A DNA stretch of 64,000 nt from Candidatus Binatia bacterium (GCA_041483675.1 JBGPGE010000001.1:868-64867), one strand, 5' to 3'; shown: positions 28,376 to 44,333, counted from the stretch's first letter. Program-made: numbers and translations. Notes: a model not told the origin generated them from the sequence alone.

Positions 28376-28446
28376 GTCGTCACTCCCGCGTAAGCGGGAG
28401 TCCAGGCATGAAAAAGACTCTGGATTCCCGTTTTCACGGGAATGAC
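28376..28446. repeat. MITE-like palindromic repeat, copy 1 (type 1)
   Basis: GTCGTCACTCCCGCGTAAGCGGGAGTCCAGGC ... CTGGATTCCCGTTTTCACGGGAATGAC. Two stem-loops and terminal inverted repeats. Nearly identical to the copy at 37155-37223. Confidence 0.8.
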
Positions 28447-28485
28447 GTGAGAGAGAGAATGCGGCATCCATACGTATTCTCAAAG

Positions 28486-28501
28486 TCGGCTTGAGCCGAC
28501 A
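28486..28501 (-). terminator. Short hairpin GTCGGC-TTGA-GCCGAC downstream of the dehydrogenase gene
   Basis: A 6-bp stem 30 nt past the stop at 28531, with a weak U tail. Confidence 0.3.
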
Positions 28502-28530
28502 GCTACCAAACCCCTCCCTCGGCGCCCGCT

Positions 28531-29856
28531 CTATAACCTGCTGATTTTTCTCGATGTAATGCGCCGCGTGAGGTTGCGGGAGTCGATCACCAGGCGCGAC
28601 GACTCGACGATTTTCGCCGGATCGAACGCACTATGGTCGGTCACGATGACCGCAAGGTCGCTCGACGACAGCGCCTCAGGAGTCAGCGGGACGGACTGGA
28701 GCGTCCTGCCGTTGAACTGCATCTCGGGCACGTGCGGGTCGTGGTAAGAGAGCAGCCCGCCCCTCTCGTGCACGAGCTTCATCAGGTCCAGCGCCGGCGA
28801 CTCGCGCACGTCGCTGGAATCTTTTTTATACGCCACACCCAAGAGCAAAATCTTCGATCCCTGGACGCTCTTGTGCGCGCGGTTCAGCGCCTCGACTATT
28901 TTTTCGAAGACGAAGCGCGGCATCTCCCGGTTGATCTCGTCCGCCAGCTCGATAATGCGCGGCTTGTAGGCCAACAGTCGTAGCTTCCACGAGAGATAAT
29001 GCGGATCGACGGGAATGCAGTGGCCGCCCAGCCCCGGCCCCGGATAAAACGGCAGGAAGCCGAACGGCTTGGTGCTCGCCGCGCGGATTACTTCCCAAAC
29101 GTCCAGCCCCAGACGGTGGCACATGATCGCGAACTCGTTGACCAGCGCGATGTTGACGCTGCGAAACGTATTCTCCAGGAGCTTCACCATCTCCGCCGTG
29201 TCAGTGTTGTTGACCGGCACTACCTCGCGCACAATCTGCCCGTAAATCGTCTTGGCCAGCTCCAGGCAGGCCGGCGTGATACCGGCCACGACTTTGGGCG
29301 TGTTGGCGAAGGTAAATTTCTCGTTGCCGGGATCGATCCGCTCCGGCGAGTAGGCGAGGAAAAAGTCTTCTCCCACTTGCAGCCCGCGCGCCTCCATCAT
29401 CGGCAAGAGCAGCTCCCGCGTCGTCCCGGGATACGTGGTGCTCTCGAGGATGATAAGCTGACCTTCGTGGAGGCTTTCGGCGACCGCCTGCGCCGCCGCC
29501 AACACCATCGACAGGTCGGGGTCTCTCGTTTTGCTGAGCGGCGTCGGCACGCAGATCGCGACGATGTCGGATTTTCTAAGCAGCGCGAAGTCGGTCGAGG
29601 CATGGAGAGTCTTGGCGCGCGGTGAGTCGAGCGAGACGTCTTGAATATAGGAGACGCCGCGATTGATGTCATCCACCCTCGCCTTGTCGAGGTCGAGGCC
29701 GAACACCGGGAAGCCCTCCTCGGCGAAGCTCACGGCGAGCGGCAGGCCGACATAGCCCAGCCCCAGGACAAAAATTCTCGCCCGCTTCTCGGCGATCTTG
29801 GCCTGAAGAATATCGTGATGGTTGTCTCTAAAAATCTCTGCTCGGTTTAGCAACAT
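28531..29856 (-). CDS. UDP-glucose/GDP-mannose dehydrogenase family nucleotide-sugar dehydrogenase (WecC/TviB-like)
   Basis: N-terminal Rossmann fold GLGYVGLP and 441 aa with the conserved central/C-terminal UDPG_MGDP_dh pattern. Confidence 0.85.
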   Translation of the reverse strand: MLLNRAEIFRDNHHDILQAKIAEKRARIFVLGLGYVGLPLAVSFAEEGFPVFGLDLDKARVDDINRGVSYIQDVSLDSPRAKTLHASTDFALLRKSDIVAICVPTPLSKTRDPDLSMVLAAAQAVAESLHEGQLIILESTTYPGTTRELLLPMMEARGLQVGEDFFLAYSPERIDPGNEKFTFANTPKVVAGITPACLELAKTIYGQIVREVVPVNNTDTAEMVKLLENTFRSVNIALVNEFAIMCHRLGLDVWEVIRAASTKPFGFLPFYPGPGLGGHCIPVDPHYLSWKLRLLAYKPRIIELADEINREMPRFVFEKIVEALNRAHKSVQGSKILLLGVAYKKDSSDVRESPALDLMKLVHERGGLLSYHDPHVPEMQFNGRTLQSVPLTPEALSSSDLAVIVTDHSAFDPAKIVESSRLVIDSRNLTRRITSRKISRL

Positions 29857-29882
29857 GGCATTTTTCCCTTTCTCCCCGCTCT

Positions 29883-41749: not shown

Positions 41750-41909
41750 GGCCCGATCCTAACTCCCTAAGCGACTCCCCGGGGCGTAAGCTCGCGGCTT
41801 CCAAGTGAAAGCCGGTGCCCGGTCGGAGATCCCGCGCATCCGATACTGCCGGTGGAAATAAGTAGCTACCCATTGCGCGGGATCGGAGAGCGGGTGCCGG
41901 CTTTCGTCG

Positions 41910-42710
41910 TCAAGAGCGATTCTCTAAGAACTTCCACGACATCACTTCCTGCTTGGCCGCGCCCCCGGCCTGGGGAAAGACGAAGCTGTCGGGCCGCGTC
42001 GTATTGCGCGCCGTCAGCTCCGGCCGGCTGTCCAGGAAACGAACAATGTCGTCGGCGTCGAAATCGGCCCGGACGGGATACAGCGCCTCATAGATCTCCC
42101 TGACCAGATCGAGATCCTCCTGGTAATCGACGCACAGGCGGTAGCGCGGCCGATCAAGATTTTCCGGCGCGCGGAGGTTGAGCAGGCGGTAGCGCTGCGG
42201 GTTGCGATAGATAAAGGGCGAAACGTTGCCGCGGTCGTAGGGATCGCTCGTCAAACGCGACACTTCGCGCAGCAAGCCGGCCGAATAGAGCTGAACGTCG
42301 AAGCCGATGGGGAACGAAAGAACGTCGAGCACATTGGTGAGATAATCGCAGCCGCCCGTGAGATACCGGGTAACCGCAGCATCGACGATGCCGGGGTCGA
42401 TCAGCGGACAGTCACCGGTAATGTCGGCGACGATATCGGCGTCGAGCGACTGCGCGGCGCCGATAAGGCGCCCCAGCACGTCGTCCAGAGAGCCGCGGTA
42501 GCAGGCGACGCCTTCAGTTCCCGCAATCTCTTCGAGAACGTCGTCCGGCGGTTCCGCGCTCGTCGCCAAACAGACGGCATCGACTTTTTGGCATCGCTTC
42601 AACCGCTCCAGCAGGCGCCGCGCCATCGGTTGTCCGAGAATCGGCTTTAAATGTTTCCCCGGCAGCCGGCTGGAGCTCATCCGGCTCCTGACCGTGGCCA
42701 CAACTCGCAT
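41910..42710 (-). CDS. Cytidylyltransferase (SpsF/PseF-like CMP-sugar synthetase family, CTP_transf_3)
   Basis: N-terminal RSRMSSSRLPGKHL motif and 266 aa. Confidence 0.65.
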   Translation of the reverse strand: MRVVATVRSRMSSSRLPGKHLKPILGQPMARRLLERLKRCQKVDAVCLATSAEPPDDVLEEIAGTEGVACYRGSLDDVLGRLIGAAQSLDADIVADITGDCPLIDPGIVDAAVTRYLTGGCDYLTNVLDVLSFPIGFDVQLYSAGLLREVSRLTSDPYDRGNVSPFIYRNPQRYRLLNLRAPENLDRPRYRLCVDYQEDLDLVREIYEALYPVRADFDADDIVRFLDSRPELTARNTTRPDSFVFPQAGGAAKQEVMSWKFLENRS

Positions 42711-42932
42711 CGAAGCTATCCCTCTTTTTTTGGTTCTTCCGGGTTTCCTGTGGGGGAGTATTCACCACAGAGGCACAGAGTTCGCAGAGTTCGGAGTATT
42801 ACTTCATCAAAAACTCTTTACTCCGCGACCTCAGCGCCTCTGCGGTGCAATATCCGAATCCTTCTTTACCGCGAACTGGAACAGCGTTGACCCGCTTACC
42901 CATACAGAAGTCTCAAGCCCCCCTTTTTTCGG

Positions 42933-44162
42933 CTACTCCAACAACTCGATCTTCGGCGTCAGCGAGAGCACCTTGGAACTGAGACCGTAACGATCGCGGA
43001 TGTCGCGGGTGATTTCGGCGCTGTACTGGGAGCAGACCAGAATGTAGTCGGGCGCGTTTTTCTGAAGAACCTCAGGCGGCGACACCGCGGTATCGAGATT
43101 CAAAAACTTAAGGCCGTGTTTTCTTCCATCCCGATCGACCACTGCCGTCACCCGCTCGGCGAGCAGCGGCGCGAGCGTCAAGAGCGTGATGCCGAAGGAG
43201 CCGGCGCCCCAGAGGGCGAGGGTCGATCCCTGGCGATTCAGCTTTTCAGCGAGAGAAGTCAACTGCGAGAGATAGGCGTCGAACCGGCTCGCGAAATCCT
43301 TGGCCTGCCCGACCAACCGCTCGACGCGAGACCGGTCGTTGGAGATCTCCGGCCTTCCGGACGCTATGCTGCATAAGGCGACTAAATTCCCCGTCTCATC
43401 AAACAGCCGCTCGACTTTCAGCCCCGCCCGCTCCAGACAAACGCGGAGAGAATTGGGCGTGAAAACCGAGAGATGCTCGAAGTGACAAGGGAGACCCAAG
43501 GGATTGTGCTCGACGAAATAGGCCCCGTTGGGCGTCTCGATAGCGACGAAGCCGTCCGCCCGAACACACTCGCGCGCAGCCGCCGCAAACTTCACGGGAT
43601 CGTCGAGATGCTCGATCAGGTGGCGATTGATCACCGCGCCGAAGCTGCCGCGATCGAACAGCTCGGGTGAAAAGAATTCGCGGACGATCGGAATGCCTCG
43701 CTGCTCGCCGATCTTCGCCCCTTCGCTAGGATCGCAGCCGAGCACCGAAAACCCCTCTTTGGCGAGCTGCAGGAGTAGATAGCCGTCGTAGCAGCCGATC
43801 TCCAGGATGCGCGCTCCCGCTGGCAGCCGCGGCTTGATGTTCTCTTTGAACACGGCGACAAATTCATCCGCGTCCTCAGTGGCGAAGCCCAGCTCCAGCT
43901 TGGATAGATAGGTGGTGTAGAGGCTGCGATAGAGGTCCTGAAGCATGTCGTCGCTCGGTCTCGACAGCAGAAGAAAATGGCCGCAATCGCGACAAATGCC
44001 CAGCCTGAGCGGTAAAGTGGGCGAAATATTCTTGCTTTTCAGCTCGGCGATCCCCGCGTCGGAGATCGGCCGCAGCACCAGGGGAAATTGCGGAAACGCG
44101 CAGACCGGCTCGATATTTTTGCCGCGGCAGACATTACACTCGTGGACATCCAGTAGTTTCAT
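42933..44162 (-). CDS. SAM-dependent methyltransferase with N-terminal Zn-ribbon (sugar C-/O-methyltransferase type)
   Basis: CNVCRG ... CRDCGH zinc-ribbon, then class-I MTase motif ILEIGCYDG. The start at 44162 has a strong RBS GGAGAGG. Confidence 0.7.
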   Translation of the reverse strand: MKLLDVHECNVCRGKNIEPVCAFPQFPLVLRPISDAGIAELKSKNISPTLPLRLGICRDCGHFLLLSRPSDDMLQDLYRSLYTTYLSKLELGFATEDADEFVAVFKENIKPRLPAGARILEIGCYDGYLLLQLAKEGFSVLGCDPSEGAKIGEQRGIPIVREFFSPELFDRGSFGAVINRHLIEHLDDPVKFAAAARECVRADGFVAIETPNGAYFVEHNPLGLPCHFEHLSVFTPNSLRVCLERAGLKVERLFDETGNLVALCSIASGRPEISNDRSRVERLVGQAKDFASRFDAYLSQLTSLAEKLNRQGSTLALWGAGSFGITLLTLAPLLAERVTAVVDRDGRKHGLKFLNLDTAVSPPEVLQKNAPDYILVCSQYSAEITRDIRDRYGLSSKVLSLTPKIELLE

Positions 44163-44225
44163 AATTTTCCTCTCCGTTCTTGGAACTTGCTCCATTTCAC
44201 TGGAGGTCGACTACCTCCCCATTCC

Positions 44226-44333
44226 GTCATTCCCGCGCAAGCGGGAATCCAGTCTTTGCCTCATGGCCCGCTCCGCCACCAGCCTGGATGCCCGCTTTCG
44301 CGGGCATGACGGACTTTCGCTTCGCCTAAAGCC
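44226..44333. repeat. MITE-like palindromic repeat, copy 4 (type 2)
   Basis: About 90% identical to 29883-29990. The track ORF 43945..44559 runs through it and is spurious. Confidence 0.8.

What the first reader, a model, noticed from the sequence alone, without database searches (positions are those of the whole stretch)
28376..44333. Four-copy MITE-like palindromic element family marks module boundaries of the flagellar/glycosylation region
Two near-identical type-1 copies (28376-28446, 37155-37223) and two about 90%-identical type-2 copies (29883-29990, 44226-44333) share the building block GTCATTCCCG-YGAAAR-CGGGAATCCAG in either orientation. It is paired with a second hairpin so that each element has terminal inverted repeats (GTCAT...ATGAC) and two stem-loops. 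Copies 1 and 2 precisely flank the UDP-sugar dehydrogenase gene. Copy 3 separates fliC2 from the glycosyltransferase. Copy 4 separates the C-methyltransferase from the FkbH cassette. Such placement suggests repeat-mediated shuffling or insertion of glycan-pathway modules, or shared transcript-end and stability elements. The spurious ORFs in the track (29920..30138, 43945..44559) are read-through of these repeats.
Basis: seen in the sequence. Interest (0 to 1): 0.55.

Follow-up and report, generated by a model that had tools for sequence, protein, structure and literature searches.

The report
Known REP palindrome pairs in Binatia
The four "MITE-like" elements are real, but they are ordinary pairs of a widespread, already described bacterial repeat (CGTC-tagged REP, the same sequence as the Neisseria dRS3/REPIN repeat) that inserted into gaps between genes, not markers of shuffled gene modules.

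Summary
The window has exactly eight copies of a 27-nt palindromic unit, (C/T)GTCA-YKCCCGY-GNAA-RCGGGMR-TCCAG, against about 0 expected by chance. They form four inverted pairs with the tags facing outward. All four lie at 28.4-44.3 kb, in gaps between minus-strand genes.

Every structural feature matches the published CGTC-1 REP family (Di Nocera 2013). That family includes Neisseria dRS3, which Bertels & Rainey call a REPIN. An unconstrained pattern scan returned the same unit, with compensatory stem changes, from MAGs assigned to many phyla.

The source is a Candidatus Binatia MAG. Six relative loci from five distinct sites (about 66-70% FliD identity where FliD is present) carry no such units. 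They nevertheless keep the motB-ugd and glycosyltransferase-flagellin junctions.

At copy 3, two sigma-28-like promoters lie 199 nt apart, against 124-128 nt in relatives. The surplus is about the size of the element, so it is a simple insertion.

The "module boundary / shuffling" reading is therefore not supported. No U-tract terminator, Rfam family or RAYT gene was found in the window. Genome-wide copy number, the mobilising enzyme and any effect on RNA remain untested.

Verdict: a new member of a known kind, of low interest.

The parts
28378..28447 (.). Copy 1 (type 1): head-to-head (HH) dimer of two CGTC-1 REP units. The units are 28379-28405 (+), CGTC|ACTCCCGC-GTAA-GCGGGAGT|CCA, and 28420-28446 (-), CGTC|ATTCCCGT-GAAA-ACGGGAAT|CCA. 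The spacer is 14 nt.
   Evidence: The dimer folds as one hairpin of -41.1 kcal/mol, z -6.3. It lies 83 nt after the ugd stop codon and 478 nt before the start of the CBS gene.
29882..29968 (.). Copy 2 (type 2): HH dimer. The units are 29883-29909 (+), TGTC|ATTCCCGC-GAAA-GCGGGAAT|CCA, and 29941-29967 (-), CGTC|ATGCCCGC-GGAA-GCGGGCAT|CCA. The 31-nt spacer is conserved with copy 4.
   Evidence: family D4. Fold -58.5 kcal/mol, z -5.4. The dimer starts 14 nt after the motB stop codon and ends 25 nt before the ugd ATG.
29969..29985 (.). Conserved type-2 tail GACTTTTGTTTCGCCTA, also present at copy 4 and in L248. Its last three bases, CTA, are the TAG stop codon of motB (minus strand, 29983-29985).
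37156..37224 (.). Copy 3 (type 1): HH dimer. The units are 37157-37183 (+), CGTC|ACTCCCGC-GGAA-GCGGGAGT|CCA, and 37197-37223 (-), TGTC|ATTCCCGT-GAAA-ACGGGAAT|CCA. The spacer is 13 nt.
   Evidence: Fold -42.3 kcal/mol, z -6.0. It lies between two sigma-28-like promoters that are 199 nt apart here but 124-128 nt apart in three relatives.
44225..44311 (.). Copy 4 (type 2): HH dimer. The units are 44226-44252 (+), CGTC|ATTCCCGC-GCAA-GCGGGAAT|CCA, and 44284-44310 (-), CGTC|ATGCCCGC-GAAA-GCGGGCAT|CCA. The spacer is 31 nt. Conserved flanks run 44215-44224 and 44312-44328.
   Evidence: Fold -63.6 kcal/mol, z -4.7. It lies 54 nt after the acetyltransferase stop codon (44366-44368) and 62 nt before the called C-methyltransferase start at 44162. 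A 1.5-kb metagenome contig ends inside this element, at window position 44290.
37275..37300 (-). Context, not part of the element: distal sigma-28-like promoter TAAAGTTTCTTCCGCAGTTGCCGATT, upstream of copy 3.
   Evidence: Conserved in L243, L245 and L247.
37076..37101 (-). Context, not part of the element: proximal sigma-28-like promoter TAAAGTTTCTTTCCCTTGCGGCGATA. It lies downstream of copy 3 and upstream of flagellin gene 36103-36969.
   Evidence: Conserved in L243, L245, L247 and L251, together with the 5' leader.

Best explanation
The four elements are head-to-head dimers of CGTC-1 REP units, that is, REPIN-like doublets of a repetitive extragenic palindrome. This is the same unit known as dRS3 in Neisseria.

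They are non-coding, non-autonomous palindromic repeats. In the lineage of this Candidatus Binatia MAG they were inserted, as whole dimers, into pre-existing intergenic gaps of a co-directional flagellar and flagellin-glycosylation gene array.

What is shown:
- the identity of the unit;
- the dimer architecture;
- structure-preserving covariation;
- absence of the elements from syntenic relatives;
- a length surplus at copy 3 that matches the element size.

What is inferred:
- spread is by a trans-acting enzyme acting on the hairpin in single-stranded DNA (a RAYT-type HUH tyrosine transposase as proposed for the Neisseria REPIN, or an enzyme still unknown);
- their position at gene junctions reflects where insertions are tolerated, close to the 3' ends of upstream genes, rather than a role in assembling the gene modules;
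- as a by-product, the -41 to -64 kcal/mol hairpins will be present in read-through transcripts and may affect RNA stability or read-through.
For: 1. Unit anatomy. All 8 units have a CGTC or TGTC tag, an 8-bp stem starting with A:T, a 4-nt GNAA loop and a CCA tail. All four pairs have the tags outside. This equals the published definition of CGTC-1 REPs, which are predominantly HH dimers and include Neisseria dRS3 (PMC3733652).

2. Link to REPINs. The Neisseria REPIN master sequence ATTCCCGCGCAGGCGGGAATC (241 copies, tied to a Group 2 RAYT) is the same unit (10.1101/2021.07.10.451892).

3. Distribution. The hits come from Dehalococcoidia, Planctomycetes, Nitrospirales, all proteobacterial classes, CPR and a Nanoarchaeota MAG. 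Of the 32 unit pairs lying within 200 nt of each other, 27 were tag-outward. The three free stem pairs were Watson-Crick or G:U in 97-100% of 340 units, with TA, CG, GC and AT alternatives.

4. Relatives. None of the relative loci L243-L247 and L249-L251 has a single unit. L251 nevertheless has motB-ugd, overlapping by 4 nt. L243, L245, L247 and L251 have the same glycosyltransferase-flagellin junction.

5. Filled versus empty site at copy 3. The sigma-28-like promoters are 199 nt apart in the window, against 124, 125 and 128 nt in relatives. The surplus of 71-75 nt compares with an element of 69 nt.

6. A dispersed family. A third type-2 copy, 94.7% identical to copy 2, lies in an unrelated gene context in another metagenome (L248).

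7. Location. All four lie between co-directional genes and nearer to the upstream gene's stop codon, as reported for CGTC-1 and GTAG-1 REPs.

8. Folding. Each dimer folds as one hairpin, z -4.7 to -6.3.
Against: - The copy number in the source genome is unknown. Only 64 kb was available, and two attempts to extend it failed.
- All four dimers fall in 16 kb and none in the other 48 kb. That is 4 of about 12 intergenic gaps of 60 nt or more, against 0 of about 17 outside (post-hoc hypergeometric p about 0.02). Some locus preference is therefore not excluded.
- No RAYT or other transposase was found in the window or near about 340 units in 240 loci. Di Nocera et al. state that CGTC REPs lack a dedicated transposase, so the mobilisation step is inferred.
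- The relatives are distant (FliD 66-71% identical), so no nucleotide-level empty site could be aligned for copies 1, 2 and 4.
Confidence: 0.8

Rival explanations
1. Recombination or module-boundary sites (the first reader's main idea, analogous to the hypothesis for Neisseria NIME arrays). The repeats would serve as substrates for recombination that inserts, deletes or swaps flagellar-glycan gene cassettes.
For: - The four dimers cluster in the flagellin-glycosylation region (p about 0.02, post hoc).
- Gene content next to motB differs among relatives: motB-ugd-115aa in L251, motB-CBS in L245 and L246, and motB-125aa in L243.
- The glycan genes beyond the 405-aa protein differ between the window and all relatives.
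- Bentley et al. 2007 proposed that dRS3 arrays promote exchange of adjacent surface-protein genes.
Against: - The motB-ugd adjacency (copy 2) and the glycosyltransferase-flagellin adjacency (copy 3) are conserved in relatives that have no repeats.
- ugd identity to the syntenic L251 gene (74%) is in line with FliD (66.5%) and the flagellins (68%). This argues for vertical descent in place.
- Copy 3 is a simple insertion between conserved promoters.
- The relatives are distant enough that differences in gene content are expected regardless of repeats.
- The elements are isolated dimers, not arrays.
Confidence: 0.1
2. Selected RNA elements. Once transcribed within the minus-strand operons, the hairpins would act as 3'-end stabilisers, processing sites or read-through attenuators. 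They would set the relative expression of neighbouring genes, for example by damping the distal flagellin promoter through copy 3. This is compatible with an origin by insertion.
For: - The hairpins are very stable on the transcribed strand, -41 to -64 kcal/mol.
- All four lie between co-directional genes, 14-83 nt after the upstream stop codon.
- Copy 3 lies in the leader of the distal sigma-28-like promoter.
- REPs in E. coli are known to stabilise upstream mRNA (established knowledge). Di Nocera et al. infer that many REPs are transcribed.
Against: - There is no U-tract, and no terminator-like call at any element.
- There is no Rfam match, even at E<=1.
- Relatives run the same operons without the elements.
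- Both strands fold about equally well, as expected of a DNA palindrome.
- There are no expression data.
Confidence: 0.25
3. Classical MITEs: deletion derivatives of an insertion sequence, mobilised by a DDE transposase that recognises the terminal inverted repeats and makes target-site duplications.
For: - The outer ends are inverted repeats.
- Copy 3 is flanked by a 7-nt direct repeat, CCTCTCC on the gene-sense strand, 2-3 nt from each end.
Against: - Copy 1 has no comparable duplication, only CTCT.
- The flanks of type 2 are conserved element sequence.
- The 'terminal repeat' is itself a complete, independently occurring palindromic unit that is also found as singletons.
- No IS with these ends was seen in the window or in 240 loci.
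- Polypyrimidine tracts are common in this leader in relatives too.
Confidence: 0.05

Closest known systems
CGTC-1 family of CGTC-tagged REPs (Di Nocera, De Gregorio & Rocco 2013, BMC Genomics 14:522, PMC3733652)
   Same: It has the CGTC/TGTC 5' tag, an 8-bp stem beginning with A:T, a 4-nt loop and a CCA tail. Tag-outward (HH) dimers predominate, and spacers are conserved within a dimer type. The location is intergenic, between co-directional genes and near the upstream 3' end. No transposase gene lies alongside.
   Different: The host lineage (Candidatus Binatia) was not among the 5 phyla reported. The type-1 spacers (13-14 nt) are shorter than the usual 20-100 nt. Both dimer types are heterodimers, with different stems in the two units, whereas homodimers predominate in CGTC-1. 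The second stem pair is C:G in two units.
Neisseria dRS3 / NIME repeats and the Neisseria REPIN-RAYT system (Bentley et al. 2007, PMC1797815; Bertels & Rainey, bioRxiv 10.1101/2021.07.10.451892)
   Same: The core sequence is the same: ATTCCCGCG-N-A-R-GCGGGAATC. Four of the eight units fit ATTCCCNNNNNNNNGGGAAT exactly. The units are paired in inverted orientation. They lie next to genes for a variable surface structure.
   Different: Here the dimers are isolated, not long mosaic arrays interleaved with RS elements. No RAYT is seen in the 64 kb. There is no evidence of phage integration or of recombination at the repeats.
E. coli / Pseudomonas REP, BIME and REPIN elements (GTAG-tagged) with TnpA_REP/RAYT (PDB 4ER8)
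   Same: They are short GC-rich extragenic palindromes with an unpaired 5' tetranucleotide. They are arranged as inverted doublets that can fold into one long hairpin, and they are located after genes.
   Different: The tag (CGTC, not GTAG) and the stem sequence differ. The cognate enzyme for the CGTC class is not established.
MITEs (e.g. Correia elements)
   Same: They are small, non-coding, bounded by inverted repeats, intergenic and multi-copy.
   Different: The ends here are self-contained hairpin units, not IS-derived terminal repeats. There are no consistent target-site duplications and no parent IS.

Membership tests
CGTC-1 REP (Di Nocera 2013) | Unpaired 5' tag CGTC (variants TGTC/CCTC) | tested here: met
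   Six units have CGTC and two have TGTC. Across 340 units from other genomes the first base is C in 62% and T in 34%.
CGTC-1 REP (Di Nocera 2013) | 8-bp stem with A:T pairs in the first and second positions | tested here: met
   All 8 units have an 8-bp stem. The first pair is A:T in 8 of 8. The second pair is T:A in 6 of 8 and C:G (compensated) in the two type-1 left units. The paper says 'almost invariably'.
CGTC-1 REP (Di Nocera 2013) | 4-nt loop (family 1) and 3-nt CCA tail | tested here: met
   The loops are GTAA, GAAA (x4), GGAA (x2) and GCAA. The tail is CCA in 8 of 8 units.
CGTC-1 REP (Di Nocera 2013) | Predominantly HH dimers (tags outside), with spacers of about 20-100 bp that are conserved within a dimer class | tested here: met
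   All 4 pairs are tag-outward. The type-2 spacer is 31 nt and conserved in copies 2 and 4 and in L248. The type-1 spacers are 13-14 nt, slightly short.
CGTC-1 REP (Di Nocera 2013) | Repeated many times (tens to thousands) across the genome | not testable with these tools
   Only 64 kb of the source was available, holding 8 units. Extension attempts failed. The metagenome collection does not hold the source sample. One short contig breaks inside copy 4, which hints at multiple copies.
REPIN-RAYT system (Bertels & Rainey) | Two REPs in inverted orientation able to form one hairpin | tested here: met
   The whole dimers fold as single hairpins, z -4.7 to -6.3.
REPIN-RAYT system (Bertels & Rainey) | A cognate single-copy RAYT (HUH/Y1 transposase) in the same genome, usually flanked by the REPs | tested here: inconclusive
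   phmmer (--max) with E. coli TnpA_REP (sequence verified against 4ER8) found nothing at E<0.3 in the window ORFs or in 250 loci. The rest of the genome was not available, and a single E. coli probe may miss a distant RAYT.
MITE | Target-site duplications and a related autonomous IS with the same termini | tested here: inconclusive
   A 7-nt direct repeat, CCTCTCC, lies near both ends of copy 3 only. There is none at copy 1, and the type-2 flanks are element sequence. No IS-like neighbour family is enriched.
Neisseria NIME array | Arrays of several dRS3 units interleaved with RS repeat families | tested here: not met
   There are four isolated dimers, 1.4-7.2 kb apart, each in its own intergenic gap.
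Intrinsic (Rho-independent) terminator | GC-rich hairpin followed directly by a U/T run on the transcribed strand | tested here: not met
   None of the 17 terminator-like calls in 27-46 kb coincides with an element, and no T-run follows any unit.
Any Rfam RNA family | Covariance-model match | tested here: not met
   There was no hit at gathering score in the whole window, and none at E<=1 in 27900-44500.

The most novel reading that the evidence does not exclude
The near-identical CGTC-1 unit occurs, with structure-preserving covariation, in genomes assigned to more than ten phyla. These include low-GC CPR and Nanoarchaeota MAGs, and now Binatia. This could mean that an unrecognised, very broadly distributed enzyme or host factor recognises this exact hairpin.

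In this Binatia lineage the dimers might still be transposing into the flagellin-glycosylation island. There they could rewire expression (copy 3 sits between tandem sigma-28-like promoters; copy 2 separates motB and ugd, which overlap in the relative L251) and seed recombination that diversifies the flagellar glycan.
Probability: 0.12. Interest if true: 0.55.

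Novelty: new member of a known kind. Interest (0 to 1): 0.2.

Why it matters
The main value is for annotation.
- These repeats generate spurious ORFs (peptides such as CHSRESGNP and LDARFRGHDG).
- One element supplies the stop codon of motB.
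- They can break short-read assemblies.
- They should not be read as evidence of horizontal acquisition of the glycan genes.

The finding modestly extends the documented host range of CGTC-1 REPs to Binatia. It also gives one clean filled-versus-empty-site comparison, which shows that the dimer, not the single unit, is what was inserted. The open question in the field, which enzyme moves CGTC-tagged REPs, is not advanced here.

Tried and rejected
- RAYT search. The E. coli TnpA_REP sequence (verified as PDB 4ER8) was run against all ORFs of the window and about 250 loci, together with an HUH...Y-x3-NP regex. There was no credible hit.

- Neighbour-gene enrichment. All-vs-all clustering of 7,403 ORFs from 240 loci around CGTC-1 units gave only ABC transporters and short-chain dehydrogenases. 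In the IMG/VR set it gave related prophage or gene-transfer-agent-like structural genes. No transposase family was enriched.

- Metagenome scan for the type-2 spacer. It found one contig only (L248) and missed the source sample, so it cannot be used for copy counting.

- Extending the source beyond the window. Two exact-protein look-ups were not on record.

- Junction of copy 4. The nearest C-methyltransferase homologues are at most 54% identical and sit in a different context. This junction is untestable.

- Terminator scan and Rfam at two thresholds found nothing.

- A promoter-like ATGACA-16-AAAAAT that uses the end of copy 2 is a 9/12 match, no better than the shuffles. I did not pursue it.

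- Association between heptamer tandem arrays and CGTC units. Arrays lie within 150 nt of 3.8% of units, against 1.0% of random positions. Both features being intergenic explains this.

- The resemblance to type I-E CRISPR repeats (19 of 27 positions, from my memory of the repeat) was treated as coincidence. There is no array and no spacer periodicity.

Full report
**Observation**

Reading the four stated sites shows the same architecture each time. A 27-nt unit, GTCA-YKCCCGY-GNAA-RCGGGMR-TCCAG, is followed after 13-14 nt (type 1) or 31 nt (type 2) by its reverse complement. The GTCA ends therefore face outward.

The consensus 27-mer with up to 3 mismatches hits exactly eight times in the 64 kb, and never in 100 dinucleotide-preserving shuffles. 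A looser dRS3-like pattern gives the same eight hits against 0.15 expected.

The two type-1 copies are 91.7% identical. The two type-2 copies are 88.9% identical over 108 nt, or 91% over 114 nt including short conserved flanks. The stems differ between units by compensatory changes (ACTCCCG/CGGGAGT, ATTCCCG/CGGGAAT, ATGCCCG/CGGGCAT).

**Context**

All neighbouring genes are on the minus strand. In order of transcription they are:
- DUF4910 protein, FkbH-like protein, ACP and acetyltransferase
- copy 4
- C-methyltransferase, cytidylyltransferase, a 293-aa protein, a 405-aa protein and the 706-aa Epimerase_2/GT2 protein
- copy 3
- flagellin, FliD, FliS, a 116-aa protein, a response regulator, a second flagellin, FliS, MotA and MotB
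- copy 2
- UDP-N-acetyl-sugar dehydrogenase (ugd)
- copy 1
- CBS protein

Each element is closer to the stop codon of the upstream gene (14, 30, 54 and 83 nt) than to the next start codon. The last three bases of the conserved type-2 tail at copy 2 are the TAG stop codon of motB.

**What the unit is**

I scanned one genome per species with GTCANNCCCGNNNNNNCGGGNNTCCAG, which leaves ten positions free. The scan reached its 120-locus limit. Hits came from MAGs assigned to Dehalococcoidia, Planctomycetes, Nitrospirales, Zixibacteria, Gemmatimonadetes, Cloacimonas, all proteobacterial classes including Neisseria, several CPR lineages and a Nanoarchaeota bin. IMG/VR also saturated.

Despite the free positions, the recovered units are essentially one sequence, GTCATTCCCGCG-A-A-R-GCGGGAATCCAG.

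The three unconstrained stem pairs are paired in 97-100% of 340 units, with TA, CG, GC and AT alternatives. The base before GTC is C or T, and the loop is G-N-A-R. Of the 32 unit pairs lying within 200 nt of each other, 27 are tag-outward. The units also occur as dimers in low-GC loci (37-38% GC), so they are not obviously contamination.

**Literature**

The string TTCCCGCGCAGGCGGGAA occurs in Bertels & Rainey's REPIN paper. There, ATTCCCGCGCAGGCGGGAATC (241 copies in N. meningitidis 2594) defines the only Neisseria REPIN population and is tied to a Group 2 RAYT, NMAA_0235.

Bentley et al. 2007 describe the same repeat as dRS3 (ATTCCCNNNNNNNNGGGAAT), the bounding repeat of NIME arrays. They hypothesised a role in recombination near variable surface-protein genes.

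Di Nocera et al. 2013 define the 'CGTC-tagged' REP superfamily. Family CGTC-1 has the tag CGTC (often TGTC), an 8-bp stem starting with A:T pairs, a 4-nt loop and a CCA tail. It occurs mostly as HH (tag-outward) dimers and has no associated transposase gene. It includes Neisseria dRS3 and Rickettsia RPE-6.

Every one of these structural features is met by all eight units in the window. A BLAST of copy 4 against plasmids finds dimers of similar length in Azospirillum and sphingomonad replicons and in Neisseria records held in the plasmid collection. Azospirillum lipoferum, sphingomonads and Neisseria are named as CGTC hosts in that paper.

**Source and relatives**

FliD homologues identify the source as a Candidatus Binatia MAG. 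The window is 100% identical to a JGI contig and 99.95% identical to GCA_041490805.1.

I fetched syntenic loci from Binatia relatives with FliD 66-71% identical (L243-L247, L251) and the locus of the closest ugd homologue (L249). None contains a single CGTC-1 unit.

In L251 the order is motA-motB-ugd-115aa, with motB and ugd overlapping by 4 nt. Its ugd is 74% identical to the window's, in line with FliD (66.5%) and the flagellins (68%). So ugd downstream of motB is an inherited arrangement, not a cassette delivered between repeats.

L245 and L246 have motB-CBS, and L243 has motB-125aa. This fits differential loss from a motB-ugd-CBS-125aa ancestor.

The glycosyltransferase-flagellin junction is present in all four relatives.

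**Filled versus empty site at copy 3**

The region upstream of flagellin contains two sigma-28-like promoters (TAAAGTTT-N-GCCGAT) and a conserved leader. The two TAAAG motifs are 124, 125 and 128 nt apart in L243, L245 and L247, but 199 nt apart in the window. Copy 3 (69 nt with tags) lies between them.

The surplus of 71-75 nt is about the size of the element. This is the clearest evidence that a whole dimer was inserted into a pre-existing intergenic region.

**A dispersed family**

The only metagenome hit to the type-2 spacer (L248) is 94.7% identical to copy 2, closer than copy 4 is. It lies in an unrelated gene context and carries a 43-nt insertion in the loop of its left unit. Type 2 is therefore a dispersed family, not something specific to this locus.

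**Mechanism**

On either strand each dimer folds into one long hairpin (-41 to -64 kcal/mol, z -4.7 to -6.3). No U-run follows any unit, and none is called terminator-like. Rfam finds nothing, even at E<=1.

The window contains no RAYT, and neither do about 2 Mb around 340 units elsewhere. No other protein family is enriched next to the units. This agrees with Di Nocera's statement that CGTC REPs lack a flanking transposase. It does not exclude a single-copy RAYT elsewhere in the genome, as claimed for Neisseria.

My best explanation is that these are REPIN-like CGTC-1 dimers that spread by a trans-acting, hairpin-recognising enzyme. They persist where insertions are tolerated, just downstream of genes. 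The insertion step is supported by the evidence. The enzyme, and any consequence at the RNA level, are inferred.

**The module-boundary idea**

In its favour:
- The four dimers cluster (4 of about 12 intergenic gaps in 27.9-44.4 kb, against 0 of about 17 elsewhere; post-hoc p about 0.02).
- The glycan gene set differs from that of relatives.
- Neisseria offers a hypothesised precedent.

Against it:
- Two of the four junctions are conserved without repeats.
- ugd looks vertically inherited in place.
- Copy 3 is a simple insertion.
- The relatives are too distant for differences in gene content to be attributed to the repeats.
- The copy-4 junction could not be tested, because the nearest methyltransferase homologues are at most 54% identical and lie in a different context.

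I rate this reading at about 0.1.

**Verdict**

This is a real feature, correctly seen. It is an instance of a described repeat family in a lineage where it had not been reported. Novelty: new member of a known kind. Interest: low (0.2).

The main unknowns are genome-wide copy number, the presence of a RAYT, strain-level polymorphism and transcript mapping.

Noticed in passing
window 41807-41905: A different long imperfect palindrome, GAAAGCCGGTGCCCGGTCGGAGATCCCGCGCA...TGCGCGGGATCGGAGAGCGGGTGCCGGCTTTC. It lies directly after the cytidylyltransferase stop codon. It is 87% identical to L248 1175-1281, on the same foreign contig that carries a type-2 copy. It folds better on the plus strand (-65.6 versus -54.3 kcal/mol), which suggests G:U pairs. 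There is no Rfam match. It may be a second mobile palindrome family or an antisense RNA.
   Followed up: partly
window 28322-28357 (-), 44355-44390 (+); L248 about 20-85 (-): A shared motif of about 33 nt, GCGAGGGGTTTC..CCC..GA..GG.CAC, lies 25-50 nt from copy 1, copy 4 and the L248 copy (inverted-repeat pair I9, 78% complementary). It may be a decayed REP unit. At copy 4 it contains the acetyltransferase stop codon.
   Followed up: partly
window 6437-6461, 50796-50860, 52549-52634, 52981-53053, 56035-56175: Several intergenic tandem arrays of 7-nt units (CCTTCTG x10, CGAGTGT, TCGGATT, ATTTTGG, CCTCCTG), reminiscent of cyanobacterial STRR heptamer repeats. Similar arrays sit next to CGTC-1 units in L008, and similar short AT-rich tandem motifs flank units in L031 and L079. 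Two fragmented assemblies of this organism end inside or at the end of the 52981-53053 array. The association with CGTC units is weak (3.8% versus 1.0% of random positions).
   Followed up: partly
window 37275-37300 and 37076-37101 (- strand), leader 36970-37075: Tandem sigma-28-like promoters and a conserved 5' leader (…CAGGGCAGGGAAGCCCTGAGA…CAAGGAGGA) lie upstream of flagellin gene 36103-36969. They are conserved across Binatia relatives. In the window the distal promoter overlaps the 3' end of the glycosyltransferase ORF.
   Followed up: partly
L248 160-225 (- strand): The left unit of this type-2 copy is split in its loop by a 43-nt insertion: ATTCCCGC|CCATTCGACGCGCTCAGGGTGGCGAGCCAGTCGAGCCGCGAAC|GCGGGAAT. 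The hairpin loop may be a target for another small insertion.
   Followed up: no
L043 5845-7310 (Rhodopseudomonas pentothenatexigens): Six CGTC-1 units in the same orientation, spaced about 310 nt apart. This is a tandem array, not the usual dimer.
   Followed up: no
window 29983-30045 (motB 3' end): MotB here extends about 9 residues further past the conserved RRVE(I/V)R motif than in relative L245 (21 versus 12 residues). It ends at a stop codon supplied by the type-2 element tail. In relative L251 motB overlaps ugd by 4 nt, so the insertion of copy 2 may have remodelled the MotB C-terminus.
   Followed up: partly
window 23844-23949 and 27023-27128: A 106-nt direct repeat (87% identical), 3.2 kb apart, in the region of small toxin/immunity-like genes (HicA, Imm32, Barstar) downstream of the CBS gene.
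   Followed up: no
window 32102-32401 and 36113-36412: The two flagellin genes share 82% nucleotide identity over 300 nt or more. Each is followed by its own fliS, so this is a duplicated flagellin-fliS module that is conserved in relatives.
   Followed up: no
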